A stretch of 64,000 bases of DNA from the NCBI GenBank assembly GCA_010093605.1, contig MU004193.1, positions 875,520 to 939,519 of the forward strand. Reading direction: 5' to 3'. Made by a program: the position numbers and the translations under genes. The notes under the pieces were generated by a model. The model saw nothing but the letters and a program-made list of their open reading frames with translations. It ran no database searches and was not told where the DNA came from. This DNA is from Lophium mytilinum. Taxonomy: Eukaryota. Below, in pieces: positions 3,901 to 54,390 of this stretch (position 1 is the stretch's first letter; each line of letters opens with the position of its first letter).

Positions 3901-5947
3901 CGTGTCAACTGTCTGCTTTTTCCAAGACTGAATAGGCTGACAGCGGTCGCCGGCTGTGTGCAGGAGACGACGTGAGGTCGAGGTTATAGCACATATAGCA
4001 CATCCTGGTATATCAAATGCTCCTCAATGGGCAGCCAACGAATGCGGAGAGACCCTGGGAGCGACTGGGAGTGACAGCTTGCCTAGAGAAGCACCGCTGC
4101 TGAGTTGACAAGGGCAACAACTCAGGTACCGAGGAAGGGTTAATGCCTGGTGCTGCAACGACAACTCTAATCCAACAACTGGAAAGCCCTCAGGCACGAC
4201 GTCGAGCTCGAGTAGAGAGCATCACCATCGCCATCACAATCAGCAACACCATCGGACGACGCCGACAGCACGAGCAAATGTTGGCGGTCAACTGCAGTCG
4301 GGGGATTCTTCGGGGCGCAACGGCACCGTGATCCAGCGGATCGAAGGATCGCAGACTACCGAGGTGAGGTCGACTGATAACGACAGTCAAGGTGTGCTGT
4401 GCCGGGACCCAGCGTTCAGACACGACGGATGATTCCCCTTTTCGCGACAGAGGCCGTCTCGAGCAAGACGAGTTGCACGAGATGCGGGCAGGCGCCTGGA
4501 GATCTCGTCCAAAACGGCCACTGCCCCGCGAACAGCCAAACGGATCCTCATTCTTCGAGTCGCTGTTGCACGCCCAGCGCGATAAAAGAACGGCGGCGTG
4601 CATCTGAAGTCGCTCAGACCAGCAGCGCGGCGACGTGCAGCCGGCCACAAGCCAGCAGAGCGTGCTCGTGGTGTCCGAGTGCACAATTGCCCCGATGGGC
4701 TCGCACGCCGTAATCATGTGCCAGTCCTACCGCGTCAACGCTTCCGATCAGTGACACCGCCCGCGGATCCCGAGAGCTGTAGCTGACAGAGGCGGTTGCG
4801 CTGTGGAGAGTCGTCATCACATCGGCTGGACTGTGGTGACTGGCCTCTGCCATCGCGGTGTTGAGGTCTGAGACTCCGCGGTGGGGTTGGCGATGCTCAA
4901 CGTGCCCAGCCTGGCCGTTGAGCTTGTGCTGACGGGAGACATGGATGCCTGTCGCGCCGCTATCCACGCCTGTCGACAACGGTGTGCGATCGGCCGTGAG
5001 GGTGTGGGAGCACAGGCTCGTGGAGGCGCCCAGGATGTGCCGATTCTTACCATACCGAAAAATAACGGAGCGCCTCCGGCCTAGCCTTTTTAGCCCAGCA
5101 TGGGTTGTCGTCCAGGCCTCGACTGTCAAGGTTCCCCCAATGTTGAAGCCTGAAACACCACAGTCGCAGCATCATCTTTACTCCACGCTTCGATACAGTA
5201 TACCCTCGCTCTGGCCCCAATCAGCACCAGCCGGCCACTCTATCTAAAGCATGCTCTGCTATACTTAATTGCCGGAAGCATAGTCCCGGTGTGGTCTCCG
5301 CGAATGCCAGGATAGAGTGGACATCAGCACCGCATGCTCTCCGACAGCAGCCTGCGAGTCCATCTGCAAGACCCTCGTTAGGACCGCTCCGGATCCTCCC
5401 AAGGGCTAGACTTCACGACCTCCACCGATGCTGCTGACTGTGGCCCGGAAATTTAAATTAAGGTTGCTGCCAGGCGGCGTCAAGCAGCAGCATGGGAAAG
5501 GGGCAAAAAACGCGATTGTGGAGGGCGCCAGCCAGCCTCCCCTCCCATGTTCACGATCTCGTCAGACTTCCGCTGCCTGCCTTGCTTCCCGCACTTCCTT
5601 GAGGGTGACGGCTCTGCTCCCGAGCAAGCCTGGCCAGCGCAGCAATCGAGCCAGGACGCCTGGCGATGTGGACAGGCAAGCCGGCCCCGGACGGCGGAAA
5701 CACACGAGATGGCCTTTTGCCGGCGATCCGAGGCATCGCAGGCCTGCCCAGCCTGACAAGGAGCTTCGAAAGGCGATCTGAGGAGCATTTTGTCGTTGCT
5801 TTGAAATGGACCTCTAACCGAGCTCTCGAAACTCAACGGCCATGCATAAGCGCGGTTCTTGCATGACCGTCTCGCACCATGATTTGCTGTCCAGCGCGTT
5901 TTCTTGCTGGCGGCGCCGTCGCCGTGCAAACCATGTCCTTAACAGAG

Positions 5948-6542
5948 CGACAATAGTCTACAATGCGTGCATATTACCCCTGTACAGTCTTCAATGCGTA
6001 CGAAACGCCACCTTCAACACGGGCGCTTCGCTTCAAGCCAGAAATAGCTGTAGCTTCAAGCACCCATGTCTATGCAGCGTTTCGCAAGCATGCACAACTC
6101 ACCCAGCTCTGCCCACGACAGTGATGGTGGTGCAAAGCTAGTCAATATCTCACGTGACCTAAAGGAATCACTTCTGAAACTTAAAAGGCTGCGCAAACAA
6201 CGCCCAACTTGGGTATTCTTGCGTGCTAGTGAGGTGTGTAAGAGGGAGAAAGGAGGGTTGGGGGACGGCTAAGTATTATGTTTAGGGGTGGTTGCTCTGC
6301 CAACAAGATAAGCACGTGCCGGGCACGGGGCTGCCCCCTTATCTTCTGTCATCACCCACCCTCTCTTCCTCCATCTTGCACCTCACGGGTACCTCTACGT
6401 GAGTTGTGCATGCGTGCAAAACGCTGCATAGACAAGGGCGCTCGAAGCTACAGCTAGTTTTGGCTTGGGGCGGCCCGGGTGGCGTTTCGTACGCATCGAA
6501 GACTGTACAGGGGTAATATGCACGCATCGAAGACTATTGTCG
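5948..6542. mobile_element. Non-autonomous Mutator-like DNA transposon (MULE-MITE), 595 bp
   Basis: Imperfect TIRs of ~150 bp at 5948-6102 and 6399-6542 (CGACAATAGTC...GACTATTGTCG). Exact 9-bp direct repeat TTAACAGAG at 5939-5947 and 6543-6551. No transposase inside. Confidence 0.85.
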
Positions 6543-9500
6543 TTAACAGAGCGGCAGTGCCAGGACTGCCCTGCTTCCCGCTCATTCCTGGTCGGTGACC
6601 GGGGGCCCTGATCATTTCTGTCTGACAGGCGGATGGTGGGGTTTTGGCAGCGGCATTGCTTCATGGGCTGATGTCTGCGTCCACTCCAACATCAGGAGAG
6701 CCGCGTGTCGTCGATTGGACTGGCTGGCGGGGGCCAGATTGCTGCTTGGGCTCGGCTGCTGTTGCTGAGATTGTTGATGCATCTTTCAGGAGAAGAACTG
6801 GTTTGACCCAGCCCGCCGGGTCGTCAGCGGTCCAGCACTCGTATCGCTCGAGATGTCCTCGCAAACCTGCCAGGCGAGATGCGGTGCCAGATAGAGTGAG
6901 CACTCCCAATTACCTCAGGCGACACGGCTGTGCAACCTCGCGTGGGACCTTGGAGGCCGCTCGAGGTTTCGAAGCATTCCGGTATCTGTTCCGAACACGG
7001 CCTTTGCTCACGAGCGCAGGATCAGATGCTATCCTCTGCAGCAGCGCGTTGACCAATCAGCACGCGTATGGCACTATTCGAAGAGCGTCGCTCACAGGCT
7101 TGCATCAGTCACCGGAAAAGGCAGCTTTGCGACGCCTCTCCGTCCGTATCGCTCCTCTCCGCACGAATCGCGCTCACAAATCGGCTGACGTGGCATGCAA
7201 ACTGGTCTGGCTGCAATATGCGCAGCTTGGAAGATGGAGGCCTGACGATATTCCCCTTGTGTGGCGATCGACGTGCGACGTGCGACGCGACGTGCTGGAT
7301 TGTTGTCACTCTCCGCATTTCCGCCCCAGTCCCGTGACTTGCGCGTGATTGTACGTAGCTAGGATTGCGGCACAGCGGTGGAGAAAGGCCCAAGCCAAGC
7401 CAGCAGCCCTTTTCCGCTCGGACGACGCCTTGCTTTTCGGCAATTGTCGTTGGCGCCGGGACGACTTCCATGGGTTAAAAAAACGGTGCTCGGAGCGATT
7501 TTTTAACAAAAAGCCACTCATCATTCCGCGACGCCTTGCAGCCCTCAGCCAGCCTTCGCAGACCCGGTGCGGATCGTGGCCGATGTGCTTCGGGGGCCCT
7601 CGCCGAGTCTTGATCGCGGTTTCGAGGCTGCGAGCCCGTGACAGCCCAACCCCAACCACACATGTGCTGGCTGTGGATCGACTCTTCCCCACTTGTCCGT
7701 GGCCTTGCTCCTGGTGTGTCCCAGTGTGCTTGTTGGACGTCCTGGCAGCTTCCGGCACCCCTGTCCTGACGAGCTCTCATCTGCCACTGCGCATCGGGGC
7801 TGCCACCGTTCTAATGTCTCAAAACGACGCCAGAGCAAACAGAGACAAAGGTCGAGTCTGCATGCACCAACGTCCCAATTGCCCATTAACGTCAGCTGAA
7901 CGCGCCGGAATCAAAATTGCCTGGCGCAATCGGCGCTGCAGACGCAGTAGCACTCATCCGCTTCGTCCGAAAATAAAGTCCGCGAGCGACGCGACCAAGC
8001 GGAGATTTGGGCATCCATCACTATTACGCTGTATAACCGTGAGGCGAACATCACCACGCCGGGTGCGACAGTGCTTCGGCGACGTCTCAGCCTGCGTGAG
8101 TCGTTGGAGAGACGAGGACAGCAGGTGGATTGTGCAGCAGCCTCGTCGTGGTGCCGTTCTCGTCGAGCTTCTAGTGCCCTTCTAGAAAAAGGGGTCATTC
8201 CCTTCACTGCGGTTTCAATCGCTAACTTTATATCGCCAACGAGTCACGCCTGTCGAAGCACTGTTGCACCATCGCAATGGGCGGCTTTGGCGGGTGGAGT
8301 ATTGATGGATCATCAAACATCATAGCCCAGTCACTAACATCGAACGAACCAACTAACAATAGAATAGTCACACAAACAACGAGTTCTTATTACGAATTAC
8401 TTCCATCCATCCCACGCATCGACCACCACAAACGCGTCCTCCCAGTTGCTGTTTCCAGCCAGCGTAGAAACGAAACAGTCGCCGGATCACGAGATGAGAT
8501 GCGTCAAGGCGTCCCACCGTGTCTTGTGTCCCACGACCGCGTTTGCCCGCCATCACGGGCTCGGTCGGTCATCTCCAACGCCGTAACTGTGGATGCCGCA
8601 GCGACGAGCACGCCGGTAATGGAAGGGATGCCCACGCGCGTGCCATGCCGTCTCACCATTCCGCAGCAGTACCGTCCGCACGTACTGCAGAACCAAGCTG
8701 GGAGACCCATTGCACAGGCACCGTTCAATTCGAACCGCTGGTAGCGATTCGAGATGATCCGGGTCGGGGGAGGGCAAGGCGTGAGCGAACGGGACACCTG
8801 GAGCATCGGCTCTCCAGCGTCCTTTCCAGCATTCCCTACCACAAATACACGTCTCGTGCGACCAGCGGCCGTTCGAGACGTACAAATACCAGCTAGCGGC
8901 GCTGTGGTTGGGCGGTTGTGGTTCCATACCACTCGCCCTGTTGCGTGCGGCGTGATGCAAATAGAACGGCGTTTCGTGCTATATCGAAAACCGAAACATT
9001 GTAAGTGGTATGTATTTTCAGAGAATGACAAATCTCCAGACGTCGAAACACTGCCACGGCAGGAAGGCGGGTGCTGTTGTCAGCTGGCCTGGACCTGCGC
9101 CTGGGTTGCTGGACGCGCGATGTGGGTGCTGTGGAAGGTGAGTTGCGGTGGTTATGCGTCTGACGGTAGTACGGTTTGTGAATCCTTCGCGCGAGGCGGG
9201 CGGGTGTTGGGTTTCAGAAGGCTGCCTGCATCGCATGGCATAAGGTGGGGGCTGCGACTTGTTTTAGTCGTGGTATCCGGTGATGCTGTGCGGGGTGCGT
9301 GAGAAGGATCAGTTTCTGGTTTCGGGTTCGTGGTCTAAGATAGGAGATCGAGAGGTAAGTCTTGTAGTGCTGAACGGGTAAGTCTGGTTGGCCTGTTCCT
9401 TAATACCGCATCTAGAATTCGAGTTTAGAGTACATCAAATCTATGCACCTATGCGCTATCTACCACGTCTCAGTCACTATCATGCCAATATCTCAAATAC

Positions 9501-9780
9501 TGTTCTCGTGTCTATGCAAAACTCTATAATTACGCAGTCATCAAGCCTCTTTCTACGTCAAACTACCTCGCACGCACCAATGTCTTGACCGTTCACGGAC
9601 GTAGACTTCATGCTACCACCATCTCTCCACCATCGTCCAACACAGCCTCCATTCTCTCTTTTCCCCACTCTGCTCCGTACACAAGCTAAACTAAGACCCC
9701 ACACTACCAACTTCAAACTAGCTACCCCGTGCTTTCTGAAACCAACCCGGCAGCTGTTCGGCAATGCCATCTCGCCGTCT

Positions 9781-10067
9781 ATTTATACACCATCATCAGA
9801 ATAGCTCACCCTGACCTTTCCTACCTTCCTGAACCAGAACCAGCCTTCCCCACGTCGGGGCGTCGTATGTTTAGCGTGTGTACGTCCGCTACGCGTCCGC
9901 CGAGGTGGCTAGTACACTACCTTGCTCAAGCAAGCGGGGAATGCTATGAAGCTGCGAAGTGGATACATTAGGAAGGTAGGAGACGGGCATCGTGATGGTA
10001 GCTTAGGTATGTAAGTCACGAGTCGGCGTGACGATCTCGTGATCAGGGCTTTTCGGCTAGTATAAAT
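9781..10067. promoter_or_regulatory. Putative bidirectional promoter 1 of the non-coding array cluster
   Basis: GTATAAAT on - strand (9788-9781) and on + strand (10060-10067). E-box variants lie between them (CACGTC 9851, CACGAG ~10017, CTCGTG 10036-10041). Confidence 0.55.
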
Positions 10068-10089
10068 GTTTCTAGAATAGATGCATGGC

Positions 10090-10260
10090 CTCGAGACATG
10101 GAGGAGGACGTCCAGTTGGCTGTGCAAAACACTCCCGGGCAAATGGAAATGGACTTGGGCCGTGGAGCAACAAGCGAGGATATGGATTTTTATGTGCGCT
10201 CTGGGTCAATGAAACCGTCAAATTCAGAAGGGAAATGGTTGGTGCCGGGCAGACTGGCCT
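10090..10260 (+). repeat. Degenerate ~45-nt repeat/spacer array (candidate ncRNA unit)
   Basis: ATGGAGGAGG..GTGCAAAA (10098), ATGG..GGAGCAACAA (10143), ATGTG..GGGTCAAT (10192), ATGGTTGG..GGGCAGA (10235). Confidence 0.45.
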
Positions 10261-10449
10261 TTGGAAACTTGGTATCAGTCGAAGGAGATGATGCTGAGCA
10301 CTACTCTTCAGAACACCTCGCAATCCTTTCCATGCTCGCAGTCTATCATTACCATACCCCTAAAGCTTCTCCGATACCGCTAATGCTTCTCGTCACTATT
10401 ACTTCCTTGAACCCCCACACTAGATCCACCCTTCATCAAAGTCTTCGTC

Positions 10450-10860
10450 GAAGCATTTTACTTCCTCCATGATCGGCCAGTGCAAACGGTTTGCTCCTCC
10501 CCTCCCTCCTCCACATCGGAAAGGTGTTGGCAATTTGTTGACCCCCTCCACCAACCTCCCACCATTGTGACCAGCTTCCTAGGGATTTTGCTCCACCGCT
10601 CCCTCCTCCACATCGCAAAGTCGTATTCATGTTGTTGCTCCCACACCACACTCCCACCGTGGCATCGAAGCCTGTCCAATTTTGCTCCACCACCCCCCTC
10701 CTCCATGAAACGAGCTATTGTGTTGTTTTGCTCCCCCCCAATCTTCCACCATCAAGTTTAAGGATTATTTTCTTTTCCAAGCCACTGCTCCTCCGCATAA
10801 CGTTACATTGTGGAAGAGTATTTTGCTCCCATCCGCCGGACCGCACTCCATCCAGTTCCT
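10450..10860 (-). repeat. ~47-nt repeat/spacer array, about 8-9 units (candidate ncRNA)
   Basis: On the + strand TTTTGCTCC-like cores recur at 10493, 10540, 10590, 10637, 10684, 10730, ~10776 and 10825 (period 46-50). Each core is followed by a C-rich tract, and the units are separated by unrelated ~16-22 nt sequences. Confidence 0.75.
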
Positions 10861-10937
10861 CCACGAGGAATTTTAGTCCTCCGACTCCTTCGTCTCACCC
10901 TGCAGAAGGAAAGGTGGAAAGAGAGCGAGGGGCGGGG

Positions 10938-11106
10938 TTTTATACTCGCTGGACGAACGGCGGTCAGGAGGTGTCACGTGGGGTTTTTGGTTGCACGTGA
11001 GCGGGAGTGGTGCGAGGGGGAGGGGAGATGTTAGGCGTGGTTAAGCGGTGAGTGGTAGGTGGTGCGTGATGTGGCACGTGGGTGCTGCTTTCTTTTTCGT
11101 ATAAGA
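10938..11106. promoter_or_regulatory. Putative bidirectional promoter 2 (TATA / 3x CACGTG / TATA)
   Basis: GTATAAAA on - (10945-10938), CACGTG at 10975, 10994 and 11075, GTATAAGA on + (11099-11106). Confidence 0.65.
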
Positions 11107-11486
11107 GGGAGGCGTAGGCGGAGAAAGGAAGGTAAGGAGGGAGTTCGCTAGGTCTCTCGACACGGCGAGGCATGCAAATTGATGGAGAGGGCGGTGGGTG
11201 AAAACTCAGTCAAGAAGACGCTTGATGTGGTTCGGGTCTTTAAACAGGACATACGGAATATTACTATAGGAGGGGATTCGGCTGGACTGGTGTGGAGGCG
11301 TTGTTTAAGGGCGATGATGCTAAGGATTACTTCATGAGATTGGTGGATTTGGTTGTTTCTAGGAAGCTTTGCGGAGGGTTAGCTGATTATCACTACACCT
11401 CTGAATCAACATCGCTCGGAATGGATCACTGCTGCTCATCCTTATCACCTCTCGCCCTTAGAGGACCGAATTCAGCCTCCACAGTC

Positions 11487-24189: not shown

Positions 24190-25000
24190 AAGATTCGTTT
24201 TGACTATCTCATCCCGCTGTCTGTGGTCCTCCCATGCATCACAGGATTCCAGGTCTCGATGTAAAGTTTTGGAGCGCATGAATCGGACCATTGCATGGAG
24301 CATTCGTAATCTCCAAGCTAGAAGTAGATGTCGCCCACTAAGGTTCCAAACTACAGCCTTAGAAGTTTCGTTTTGCTACTATTATCCTACCGTCTGGCGT
24401 TCTCCAGCACACTGTAAAAAGCCGGCATAGGATGTAAAGCTCCCGAGCCTTTAAATTAGATGCGCTGCTCGTGCAATCGTGTTTTCAAGCAGTTATTCAA
24501 CACTGTGAAACACGCCTCTAAATTGGAGATGTAGGACCATCATTTTGACAGCCTGATCGTGCTGTCTGCAGCCCTTCAGCATCCTTTCAAACCCGTAATA
24601 GACTGCCATCTCCTTAAGCTCGTAAACGGAACTTGCATCTTCGTAGTTGTAATCCGTGAGTAGATTTTATGGACAATACCTTCGCGACGTAGATTGGAAT
24701 CAAGGGGCTCTCGTTTTGACAACCTGATGCTGCCGTCTGCAGTCCTTCAGCATGCCCTTCAGTATTAGAACGCGATGTAAGAAACCGAGCACGTGAATCA
24801 CACTCGCGTCTTGAGCAGCTGTGATCGATGAGCTTTTACTATACAAGACGCCATTACCAGCAGATCTAGCCCATCCGGCCGTCCGTTTTGACATCCTGAT
24901 CCTACCGTTTGAAGTCCTTCAACACACTGGACACCATGAGGGCACCATGTAAGATTCCAAGCACGTCAATAAGACCGCGTCCATAACACTCTTAAAAGAA
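24190..25000. repeat. Degenerate ~172-bp tandem repeat, about 5 copies
   Basis: TTTTG(A)C..AT..T[A/G]C[C/T]GT[C/T]TG cores at 24198, 24371, 24543, 24714 and 24886. ATGTAA..AGC sub-motif at ~24260, 24432, 24775 and 24947. Confidence 0.75.
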
Positions 25001-41528: not shown

Positions 41529-41614
41529 CTCGCCTTGGTGTAGTTGGTTTATCACGTCGGGCTGTAATTGCGCATCATACCTGAAGGTCCGCGGTTCGAT
41601 TCCGCGAGGCGAGA
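41529..41614 (+). tRNA. tRNA-Tyr(GTA) with intron
   Basis: Acceptor stem CTCGCCT/AGGCGAG+A, TGGTGTAGTTGG A-box, anticodon arm TCGGG-CT GTA A[~11-nt intron]A-CCTGA, GGTTCGATTCC B-box, T-run downstream. Confidence 0.92.
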
Positions 41615-53607: not shown

Positions 53608-53692
53608 GGTCTTATAGTGTAGTGGTTATCACTCCGGATTTTGATGTTCGTCAGAAGTTCCGGCGACCCAGGTTCGAGCCCTGGTAAGACCT
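53608..53692 (+). tRNA. tRNA-Gln(TTG) with 13-nt intron
   Basis: GGTCTTA/TAAGACC+T acceptor, CCGGA-TT TTG A[TGTTCGTCAGAAG]T-TCCGG, GGTTCGAGCCC. Confidence 0.92.
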
Positions 53693-54308: not shown

Positions 54309-54390
54309 GGTCCTATGGTGTAGTGGTTAGCACGTCGGATTCTGATACTCCTGATTTCCGGAGACCCCGGTTCGATTCCGGGTAGGACCT
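54309..54390 (+). tRNA. tRNA-Gln(CTG) with 10-nt intron
   Basis: GGTCCTA/TAGGACC+T acceptor, TCGGA-TT CTG A[TACTCCTGAT]T-TCCGG, GGTTCGATTCC, T-run terminator. Confidence 0.92.

What the first reader, a model, noticed from the sequence alone, without database searches (positions are those of the whole stretch)
10450..10860. Best-preserved array: ~47-nt period with conserved repeat and unique ~20-nt spacers (CRISPR-like geometry in a fungus)
Seen on the minus strand: G-rich repeats ending GGAGCAAAA/GGAGCAACAA recur at intervals of 47, 50, 47, 47, 46, ~46 and ~49 nt, alternating two sub-types (~94-97 nt dimer). Spacers are mutually unrelated: TACTCTTCCACAATGTAACGTT, CAACACAATAGCTCGTTTC, TTGGACAGGCTTCGATGCC, CATGAATACGACTTTGCG, TCCCTAGGAAGCTGGTCACA, TTGCCAACACCTTTCCG, CCGTTTGCACTGGCCGATC. 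Neutral minisatellite decay should erode the whole unit evenly; here divergence is concentrated in one half while length is kept. Inference: the spacers may be guide-like sequences on a scaffold. The GGA/GGG-rich half could instead be a protein-binding or G-quadruplex element. This is not a true CRISPR: there are no cas genes and the repeats are degenerate.
Basis: partly seen in the sequence, partly recalled or inferred. Interest (0 to 1): 0.8.

Follow-up and report, generated by a model that had tools for sequence, protein, structure and literature searches.

The report
G-rich core-and-linker tandem array
A stretch of non-coding DNA in which a G-rich motif of about 27 bases recurs roughly every 47 bases with unrelated filler between copies; the pattern is real and looks maintained, but nothing found here suggests the filler works as CRISPR-like guides.

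Summary
On the minus strand, 10906-10471 carries nine head-to-tail units of 46-55 nt in two alternating subtypes, plus a decayed tenth. Each unit is a G/A-rich, C-poor core followed by a 17-22-nt linker. Cores resemble each other far beyond composition (z 8-13, 0 of 2000 shuffles). Linkers do not (z about 0; at most 2.3 in one subset). Uniform neutral decay is therefore excluded.

New context: the array begins about 30 nt downstream of a TATAAAA preceded by three CACGTG boxes. This promoter occurs again, inverted, 1.8 kb away (four CACGTG boxes plus TATAAAA), followed by a decayed G-rich periodic tract. A multi-copy transposon-like insert separates the two copies.

I found no conserved reading frame (periods are not multiples of 3), no protein homologue, no Rfam family and no excess RNA structure. 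No linker has a match in the 64-kb window better than shuffles give. No related locus turned up in the metagenome collection.

Best reading (0.45): the cores are repeated docking sites for a G-rich-sequence binder or structure, on DNA or nascent RNA, and the linkers only set spacing. Main rival (0.3): a functionless minisatellite whose cores are homogenised. The guide reading is unsupported (about 0.03). Transcription is inferred, not shown.

The parts
10471..10906 (-). Tandem array of nine units, U-1 to U7, each a G/A-rich core plus a linker. Units on the minus strand: 10906-10852, 10851-10799, 10798-10753, 10752-10707, 10706-10661, 10660-10614, 10613-10566, 10565-10517, 10516-10471.
   Evidence: Core composition is G 0.50, C 0.08; linker composition is G 0.18, C 0.29. 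Core similarity is z 8.35-13.2 and linker similarity z 0.07. Self-BLAST gives E 6.8e-9.
10421..10470 (-). Decayed tenth unit (U8). Only its first ~10 nt (ATGGAGGAAG) are core-like.
   Evidence: Read from the sequence.
10938..10944 (-). TATAAAA box, 32 nt upstream of the first array unit.
   Evidence: One of only 4 TATAAAA in the window, both strands.
10975..11080 (.). Cluster of three CACGTG boxes (10975, 10994, 11075) upstream of the left TATA box.
   Evidence: 21 CACGTG in the window. Seven of them lie in this cluster and its mirror cluster.
10592..11347 (-). Left arm of an old inverted duplication: promoter plus the start of the array.
   Evidence: Colinear local alignment with 12730-13419 (+), score 112. 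A narrower test scores 96, against a shuffle maximum of 72 (0 of 200) and a maximum of 80 for other window pieces (0 of 189). The promoter part alone scores 84 against mean 51.7 (1 of 300). The array part alone is not significant (25 of 300).
12730..13419 (+). Right arm of the inverted duplication.
   Evidence: 457 matches in 836 columns, 226 gap columns, 42 transitions and 111 transversions.
12941..13087 (+). Mirror promoter: four CACGTG boxes (12941, 12950, 12967, 13056) followed by TATAAAA at 13081-13087.
   Evidence: In the arm alignment two CACGTG boxes and the TATA box stand in matching columns.
13122..13419 (+). Decayed counterpart of the array. G-rich blocks open with ATG at 13122, 13172, 13224, 13274, 13319, 13370 and 13396.
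   Evidence: The composition contrast is the same as on the left: blocks G 0.43, C 0.10; fillers G 0.19, C 0.31. Left cores against right blocks give z 3.9 (0 of 1000). The tract's own periodicity is not significant (z 1.5, 157 of 2000), and its ATG chain lies within the null.
11479..12726 (.). Multi-copy, AT-rich, transposon-like insert between the two arms. It is 2.2 tandem copies of a 563-nt unit.
   Evidence: Self-BLAST gives 88.6% over 676 nt. GC is 0.37-0.43. In both DNA runs many contigs pile up here and diverge at 11478 and 12726.
10090..10249 (+). Possible inverted partial copy of two or three units. Weak.
   Evidence: Aligns with 10714-10544 (-), score 44. 17 of 500 block shuffles and 4 of 490 window pieces reach it. 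The single-unit test is not convincing (126 of 2944).

Best explanation
The array is a maintained core-and-linker array, not a guide array.

Shown:
- Nine units of 46-55 nt lie head to tail on the minus strand.
- Each unit has a 27-35-nt core that is G/A-rich and almost free of C, then a 17-22-nt linker of ordinary composition.
- The cores have stayed alike, including an identical 9-mer end in four units. The linkers are as unlike as random sequence, yet their length is kept.
- The array starts 32 nt downstream of a TATAAAA box that is preceded by three CACGTG boxes.
- This promoter is one of two inverted copies. The other copy is followed by a decayed version of the array.

Inferred:
- The cores are repeated docking sites for one factor that reads G-rich sequence, or they form a G-rich structure. 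This would act either on the nascent RNA or non-template strand of a short non-coding transcript fired from that promoter, or on double-stranded DNA.
- Several sites in a row make a multivalent platform.
- The linkers only set the spacing: about 4.5 helical turns per unit and 9 per A/B dimer.
- The CACGTG boxes suggest control by a bHLH-type factor.
For: - Non-uniform conservation. Cores give z 13.2 (0 of 2000), and z 8.35 with the anchoring ATG removed. Linkers give z 0.07 (952 of 2000). Same-subtype core identity is 0.67-0.89 against linker identity 0.26-0.56, which is the level of unrelated pairs.
- Length is kept. Seven successive units measure 46-49 nt. The two promoter arms, by contrast, differ by 226 gap columns in 836.
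- The constraint looks compositional as well as positional: cores are G 0.50, C 0.08.
- Promoter architecture. Only 4 TATAAAA occur in the window. Two of them each follow a cluster of 3-4 CACGTG boxes and face away from each other. Two CACGTG boxes and the TATA box are kept in matching columns of an alignment that is otherwise 60% identical.
- A built-in contrast. The right-hand copy has the same G-rich/C-rich alternation but has lost detectable periodicity. That is what an unmaintained copy would look like.
- No close second copy. In both DNA runs, the depth over the array bins equals that of the one contig listed there at 85% likeness or more. This is my inference from summed depth, not a copy number.
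- Coding is excluded as far as it could be tested.
Against: - No relative from another species could be found, so selection is inferred from a single locus.
- No binding factor is known or testable here.
- Transcription is not shown. No run on record as RNA holds the stretch.
- The RNA folds no better than shuffles on either strand.
- There is no canonical three-tetrad G-quadruplex motif in the array. There are only 6 two-tetrad motifs, and only 4 of 8 cores reach G4Hunter 1.5.
- U1 has a poor core and U0 is atypical.
- Homology between the arms is significant only for the promoter part. That the array predates the duplication therefore rests on the weaker core-to-block similarity (z 3.9).
- Local homogenisation of the cores without any function cannot be excluded.
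Confidence: 0.45

Rival explanations
1. The array is a functionless, decaying G-rich minisatellite. It arose by tandem duplication of a ~95-nt dimer. The cores stay alike through short-tract conversion or template switching between neighbouring G-rich tracts, or through slippage inside GGN-like runs. The linkers drift freely. The nearby promoter is incidental.
For: - The array is degenerate enough for TRF to miss it.
- The G-rich strand asymmetry is typical of minisatellites (recalled).
- The cores share mosaic exact tracts: 15 nt between U5 and U7, and 13 nt between U3 and U5 (read).
- The right-hand copy has simply decayed.
- Another degenerate tandem repeat, with period 171-172, lies at 24519-24975. 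Such arrays are therefore not rare in this window.
- There is no structure, no homologue and no target.
Against: - Unequal exchange or slippage copies whole units, so it should leave related linkers. None of the tests finds any.
- Conversion confined to about 27 nt is shorter than what homologous recombination usually needs (established knowledge, not tested here).
- With linkers saturated, an intact 9-mer in four units and unit lengths of 46-49 nt are not expected without constraint.
Confidence: 0.3
2. The arms are relics of a mobile element: two old LTR-like or terminal-repeat copies, each with its own promoter and subterminal binding-site repeats. The array would then be a former transposase or regulator binding array.
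For: - The arrangement is inverted, with outward-facing promoters, next to a multi-copy transposon-like insert.
- Subterminal arrays of short binding sites with variable spacers are known in DNA transposons (recalled).
Against: - No other contig of 85% likeness or more is visible on the arms in two DNA runs, whereas the central insert is heavily multi-copy.
- No transposase or reverse-transcriptase domain was found in the 6 local ORFs scanned.
- No terminal inverted repeats or target-site duplications were found around the array.
- Relic status would not explain why only the left cores stay alike.
Confidence: 0.1
3. The array is a coding or formerly coding repeat: a proline-rich repeat on the plus strand, a Gly/Trp-rich peptide on the minus strand, or a string of short ORFs that each open with the unit's ATG.
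For: - The plus-strand frames give a similar peptide, FAPPLPPPHRK, from two units, and FAPPPPSSMKR from a third.
- Eight of the nine units from U0 to U8 open with ATG (U4 opens with ACG).
- The 124-aa plus-strand ORF next to the array has a codon score of 0.079, at the low edge of the real genes (0.069-0.238).
Against: - Unit lengths of 46, 46, 46, 47, 48, 49 and 46 are mostly not multiples of 3, and neither are the dimers. The similar peptides lie in three different frames.
- There are no Pfam families for the 6 local ORFs.
- Three word-indexed searches found no homologues.
- The full HMMER search of the 124-aa ORF gave 1 hit. It is a sum of 11-of-31-identity matches to a repeated F5/8 type C domain protein, which I take as spurious.
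- The ATG-led peptides differ in frame between units.
Confidence: 0.05
4. One reading: the linkers are guide-like sequences carried on a G-rich scaffold and processed into small RNAs that find targets by base pairing. This might work together with the ZNFX1-type helicase encoded 3.5 kb away.
For: - The geometry is right: constant-length, mutually unrelated linkers between conserved cores.
- A promoter would put the array on an RNA.
- The next gene is a ZNFX1-type helicase. Members of that family act in small-RNA pathways in other organisms (recalled).
Against: - No scaffold structure is seen.
- None of the 8 linkers has a better-than-shuffle match in the window.
- The linkers are identical in the only other data set that covers them.
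- The cores are only 58-89% alike.
- No known processing machinery is tied to such an array in eukaryotes.
- The neighbouring helicase may be there by chance.
Confidence: 0.03

Closest known systems
Xist A-repeat (mammalian lncRNA module)
   Same: Both have about eight conserved repeats alternating with less conserved linkers. Xist is a polymerase II non-coding RNA, and four or more repeat units are needed for high-affinity protein binding. These points come from passages of PMC10870365. That Repeat A is 5'-proximal comes from the abstract start of bioRxiv 10.1101/2025.05.21.655143 in the search listing.
   Different: In Xist the linkers are U-rich and the cores form hairpins or inter-repeat duplexes. 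Here the linkers have ordinary composition, the cores are G/A-rich, and no fold signal appears. There is no sequence relation. Transcription and protein binding are not shown here.
meiRNA and other Mmi1-binding lncRNAs of fission yeast
   Same: It is a fungal non-coding RNA that carries many copies of a short protein-binding motif and acts as a decoy. I saw PMC4077057 only as a search listing with the start of its abstract.
   Different: There the motif is a hexamer scattered irregularly, not a 27-nt core at a fixed period. That hexamer is not a regular feature of the cores here.
G-rich minisatellites, including fungal ones
   Same: Both are head-to-tail units of tens of bases with G-rich strand asymmetry. 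Fungal minisatellites of 23 and 39 nt, for which a role in small-RNA synthesis was proposed, are described in PMC4560493 (abstract read).
   Different: In those, the whole unit is repeated and copy number varies between isolates. Here only half of each unit is kept alike, and no copy-number difference is seen in the data sets laid.
Su(Hw) binding-site cluster of the gypsy insulator
   Same: It is a cluster of degenerate zinc-finger-protein sites separated by variable spacers, lying just downstream of a promoter. The layout is recalled. PMC5416891 passages show only that Su(Hw) has twelve zinc fingers and binds the gypsy insulator.
   Different: It belongs to an animal retroelement, with a different period and AT-rich spacers. 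No binding protein is known here.
CRISPR arrays
   Same: Both alternate repeats with unique spacers of near-constant length.
   Different: Here the repeats are 58-89% alike rather than near-identical. No cas-like domain was found in the local ORFs scanned. The context is eukaryotic-looking, and the repeat has no structure.

Membership tests
CRISPR array | Near-identical direct repeats | tested here: not met
   Core identity is 0.58-0.89 between units. TRF does not call the array.
CRISPR array | Unique spacers of near-constant length | tested here: met
   Linkers of U0-U7 are 17-22 nt. Linker similarity is z 0.07.
CRISPR array | Adjacent cas genes | tested here: not met
   Pfam scan of 8 ORFs: the 6 local ORFs have no family, and the neighbour is a ZNFX1-type helicase. 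Only these 8 ORFs were scanned.
Minisatellite (tandem repeat of 10-100 nt units) | Head-to-tail units on one strand | tested here: met
   Nine units of 46-55 nt. Self-BLAST E 6.8e-9.
Minisatellite (tandem repeat of 10-100 nt units) | Whole unit shares descent and decays evenly | tested here: not met
   Cores z 13.2 against linkers z 0.07.
Minisatellite (tandem repeat of 10-100 nt units) | Copy number varies between isolates | tested here: inconclusive
   Three runs from two studies show no length difference. Two of the runs may be the source itself, and the third may be the same strain.
Repeat module of a non-coding RNA (Xist A-repeat-like) | Conserved cores with less conserved linkers | tested here: met
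Repeat module of a non-coding RNA (Xist A-repeat-like) | Lies on a transcript | tested here: inconclusive
   The TATA box and CACGTG boxes sit in the right place and orientation. No run on record as RNA holds the stretch.
Repeat module of a non-coding RNA (Xist A-repeat-like) | Cores bind a defined protein or fold | not testable with these tools
   Folding gives no excess stability. Binding needs an experiment.
Known RNA families (snoRNA clusters, others in Rfam) | Match to a covariance model | tested here: not met
   The E-value scan of 9000-13000 gives only a chance-level histone stem-loop hit at 11997-12042. The whole window at gathering scores gives three tRNAs elsewhere.
Coding tandem repeat (repeat-peptide precursor) | Period a multiple of 3, with one open frame across units | tested here: not met
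   Unit lengths are 53, 46, 46, 46, 47, 48, 49 and 46. Similar peptides fall in three frames.
Coding tandem repeat (repeat-peptide precursor) | Protein homologues | tested here: not met
   Searches give none. The single hit is spurious.
G-quadruplex-forming repeat | Four runs of three or more G with short loops | tested here: not met
   None in the array. There are 6 two-tetrad motifs, and 4 of 8 cores reach G4Hunter 1.5.
Transposon subterminal repeat array | Element present in several copies, with defined ends | tested here: not met
   No second contig of 85% likeness or more is visible on the array in two DNA runs. No terminal inverted repeats were found. More diverged copies could not be searched for.

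The most novel reading that the evidence does not exclude
A eukaryotic array in which unique, constant-length linkers between conserved G-rich cores are transcribed from a nutrient-type promoter and cut into guide-like small RNAs, perhaps handled by the ZNFX1-type helicase encoded next door. This would be a CRISPR-like layout that evolved independently in a fungus.
Probability: 0.03. Interest if true: 0.9.

Novelty: new member of a known kind. Interest (0 to 1): 0.35.

Why it matters
If the cores are kept by selection, this is a compact, single-copy example in a filamentous fungus of a multivalent core-and-linker module, of the kind known from Xist repeat A or from insulator site clusters. It sits behind a duplicated CACGTG/TATA promoter and has a decayed paralogue nearby as a natural control. 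It could be tested with one deletion and one pull-down. If instead the cores are kept alike by a local homogenising process, it is an ordinary decaying minisatellite. Its only value would then be as a case where conversion acts on about 27-nt tracts. Either way, the CRISPR analogy should not be carried forward without small-RNA data.

Tried and rejected
- Tandem Repeats Finder reports nothing at the locus.
- No whole genome is held. Genome-wide searches for linker targets or for diverged copies were therefore impossible.
- Earlier findings: three look-ups returned nothing.
- Rfam: nothing relevant.
- RNA folding of 10333-10910 on both strands and of 10050-10910 on the minus strand gives z -0.74, -0.14 and +0.74.
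- Coding: there is no consistent frame. The 6 local ORFs have no Pfam family. Three protein searches gave no hits. One full search gave a single spurious hit. The codon score of the 124-aa ORF is ambiguous.
- Linkers against the window: 8 of 8 are no better than shuffles.
- Metagenome scans: an exact core pattern gave 0 loci. The neighbouring helicase as a probe for syntenic loci gave 15 pattern matches, none confirmed.
- Sequencing runs: no RNA holder is listed.
  - Run X3 is only guessed to be RNA. One of its contigs (578 nt, 0 differences) covers 10333-10910 and another covers 10184-10357.
  - I noticed that the first contig ends 34 nt downstream of the first T of the TATA box, that the second ends just after an A-rich run at 10187-10193, that X3 has stretches without cover beside them, and that its contig depths are very uneven.
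  - These come from a single run of unknown kind, kept as contigs, so I count none of it as evidence for expression, transcript ends or strand.
- Inverted partial copy at 10090-10249: weak.
- Right-arm array: its own periodicity is not significant once the anchoring ATG is removed (z 1.5). Its ATG chain of 6 lies within the null.
- Unit-by-unit orthology between the arms is not supported. There is no in-register preference, and the array-only alignment is reached by 25 of 300 shuffles. I therefore dropped the claim that the linkers were already distinct at the time of the duplication.
- RIP signature between the arms: none (42 transitions, 111 transversions).
- Canonical G-quadruplex: none.
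- Splice-site readings of the units, and resemblances of the cores to recalled yeast transcription-factor sites, were considered and dropped as untestable numerology.

Full report
**What is there**

Read on the minus strand, 10906-10471 consists of nine head-to-tail units.
- The units are 10906-10852, 10851-10799, 10798-10753, 10752-10707, 10706-10661, 10660-10614, 10613-10566, 10565-10517 and 10516-10471.
- A tenth unit (10470-10421) keeps only the first ten core-like bases.
- Each unit opens with ATG (ACG in one) and runs through a G/A-rich tract. In most units the tract ends in GGAGCAAAA or a close variant.
- A linker of 17-22 nt follows.
- The spacings between core ends are 95, 46, 47, 47, 51 and 46.

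**Is it more than chance**

- Self-BLAST aligns 10490-10610 with 10587-10705 at 71.8% over 124 nt, E 6.8e-9.
- The best autocorrelation lag is 95.
- The repeat finder gives a 56-nt pair at 79% identity and spacing 97.
- Six of the 21 window matches to the 9-mer core end (up to one mismatch) lie in the array, all on one strand.
- A profile of six cores finds only those six in the window, plus one hit at E 5.6.
- In a window-wide scan for periodic self-similarity the locus scores 0.382 against mean 0.261, sd 0.027. It is the 11th distinct locus.
- TRF does not report the array, so it is degenerate.
- The two alternating subtypes are real. Core identity at lag 2 is 0.67-0.89 against 0.58-0.74 at lag 1.

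With composition controlled by shuffling each piece:
- Same-subtype cores score z 13.2 (0 of 2000 shuffles reach the observed score). With the anchoring ATG removed they still score z 8.35 (0 of 2000).
- Linkers score z 0.07 (952 of 2000).
- Only the subset U2-U7, same subtype, gives a faint linker signal: z 2.27, 41 of 2000, uncorrected. It comes mostly from the last bases before the next core.
- By lag, linkers give z between -1.2 and 1.3.
- Cores are G 0.50, C 0.08. Linkers are G 0.18, C 0.29.
- Seven successive units measure 46-49 nt.

A uniformly decaying tandem duplication cannot give saturated linkers next to an intact 9-mer in four units and a nearly fixed period.

**Surroundings**

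- The array starts 32 nt downstream of a TATAAAA at 10944-10938 on the minus strand. This is one of four in the window.
- Upstream of that box lie three CACGTG boxes at 10975, 10994 and 11075.
- A second TATAAAA at 13081-13087 on the plus strand follows four CACGTG boxes at 12941, 12950, 12967 and 13056.
- The two stretches are homologous in inverted orientation. 11347-10592 (-) aligns colinearly with 12730-13419 (+), score 112.
- A narrower test scores 96, against a shuffle maximum of 72 (0 of 200) and a maximum of 80 for other window pieces (0 of 189).
- The alignment has 457 matches in 836 columns, 226 gap columns, 42 transitions and 111 transversions. The duplication is therefore old, with no RIP-like transition excess.
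- Two CACGTG boxes and the TATA box stand in matching columns.
- The significance rests on the promoter part: 84 against mean 51.7, 1 of 300. The array part alone is not significant (25 of 300), and the linkers show no in-register preference between the arms.
- Between the arms lies 11479-12726, an AT-rich tandem duplication of a 563-nt unit. It is heavily multi-copy in both DNA runs, and other copies diverge from it at 11478 and 12726.

**The right arm**

Downstream of its TATA box the right arm has G-rich blocks opening with ATG about every 50 nt, at 13122, 13172, 13224, 13274, 13319, 13370 and 13396.
- The composition contrast matches the left arm: blocks G 0.43, C 0.10; fillers G 0.19, C 0.31.
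- Left cores resemble these blocks beyond composition (z 3.9, 0 of 1000).
- The right blocks do not resemble each other significantly once the ATG anchor is removed (z 1.5, 157 of 2000). An ATG chain of six lies within the null.

I read the right arm as an unmaintained copy. This inference rests on the weaker statistics.

**What it is not**

- Not coding.
  - The unit and dimer lengths are mostly not multiples of 3. Similar proline-rich peptides from three units fall in three frames.
  - Six local ORFs have no Pfam family.
  - Three protein searches found nothing.
  - The one hit of the full HMMER search is a sum of 11-of-31-identity matches to a repeated F5/8 type C domain protein.
- Not a known RNA family.
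- Not a structured scaffold, with z -0.74, -0.14 and +0.74.
- Not a canonical G-quadruplex array.
- Not visibly a multi-copy element. In both DNA runs, the depth over the array bins equals that of the one contig listed there at 85% likeness or more. That is my inference from summed depth, not a copy number.
- No guide evidence. None of the eight linkers has a match elsewhere in the 64-kb window better than the best of 30 shuffles. The one other data set covering the array has identical linkers.

**How it most likely works**

- The simplest account of alike cores, free linkers and a fixed period is that the cores are read as units and the linkers only space them.
- The array begins where the TATA box should start transcription, and the G-rich strand is the non-template strand. 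GC skew is about +0.39 over U0-U7, computed from the counts. So the cores could act on the nascent RNA or as an R-loop or G-rich structure.
- They could equally be sites on double-stranded DNA for a multi-finger protein. The cores read largely as GNN triplets (from the sequence).
- I cannot separate these versions, so I give the platform reading 0.45 overall.
- The CACGTG boxes point to a bHLH-type regulator. This is an inference from established knowledge of such boxes and was not tested.
- The main rival (0.3) is a functionless minisatellite whose cores are homogenised locally. It has to explain why no linker was ever carried along.
- A mobile-element relic (0.1), a coding remnant (0.05) and the guide reading (0.03) follow.

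**Comparison with known systems**

- In layout it is closest to Xist repeat A: eight and a half conserved repeats with less conserved linkers, and several units needed for tight protein binding (passages of PMC10870365).
- It also resembles clusters of zinc-finger sites such as the gypsy insulator. That layout is recalled; PMC5416891 passages show only the twelve-finger protein and its binding.
- In fungi, meiRNA is a decoy RNA with many copies of a short motif (PMC4077057, listing and abstract start only).
- Fungal minisatellites of 23 and 39 nt have been proposed as small-RNA sources (PMC4560493, abstract).
- It shares no sequence with any of these and meets the CRISPR definition only in geometry.
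- I found no description of such an array in print in four searches. These were aimed at analogues, not at this locus.

**Limits**

- No genome, no related species and no run on record as RNA were available.
- Transcription, strand, binding and conservation are all untested.
- What the guessed-RNA run covers is told under Tried and rejected and is not counted as evidence.

**Verdict**

This is a real and statistically solid core-and-linker array, with an informative duplicated promoter context. It is probably a maintained binding platform and possibly just a peculiar minisatellite. It is very unlikely to be a guide array. Interest 0.35.

Noticed in passing
window 11479-12726: An AT-rich (GC 0.37-0.43) tandem duplication of a 563-nt unit, 2.2 copies at 89-91% identity. 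It contains 20-nt sub-repeats at 11806-11894 and 12369-12457. It is heavily multi-copy in both DNA runs. Where other copies differ, the window mostly has A where they have G (14-17 of 23-31 places), which looks RIP-like.
   Followed up: partly
window 14385-18144 (-): A ZNFX1-type superfamily-1 helicase (ZNFX1, AAA_11 and AAA_12 domains) in at least two exons. The cysteine-rich zinc-finger motifs continue from the 1015-aa ORF into the 231-aa ORF at 14385-15077. It is the nearest clear gene to the right arm.
   Followed up: partly
window 24519-24975: Another degenerate tandem repeat: about three copies of a 171-172-nt unit at 73-75% identity, in a region of lower GC.
   Followed up: no
window 10061-10472 (+): A TATAAAT at 10061-10067 lies 31 nt upstream of an ATG that opens a 124-aa orphan ORF (10098-10469). 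The ORF ends where the array begins. Its codon score is borderline (0.079) and it has no real homologues. It may be a young gene or nothing.
   Followed up: partly
window 41529-41614, 53608-53692, 54309-54390 (+): Three tRNA genes of 82-86 nt, long enough to hold introns.
   Followed up: no
window 4600-9500: About 5 kb of GC-rich sequence (0.52-0.60) with only short, arginine-rich stop-to-stop frames and no clear gene. One contig of run X3 covers 8000-9466 and extends beyond the laid stretch.
   Followed up: no
window 13829-14000: In run X3 the contig laid here has a far higher depth (148) than its neighbours (1-4), while both DNA runs cover the place with one even contig. It may be a strongly expressed short transcript or the helicase 3' end. 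Depth of contigs is a poor measure, so this is only a lead.
   Followed up: no
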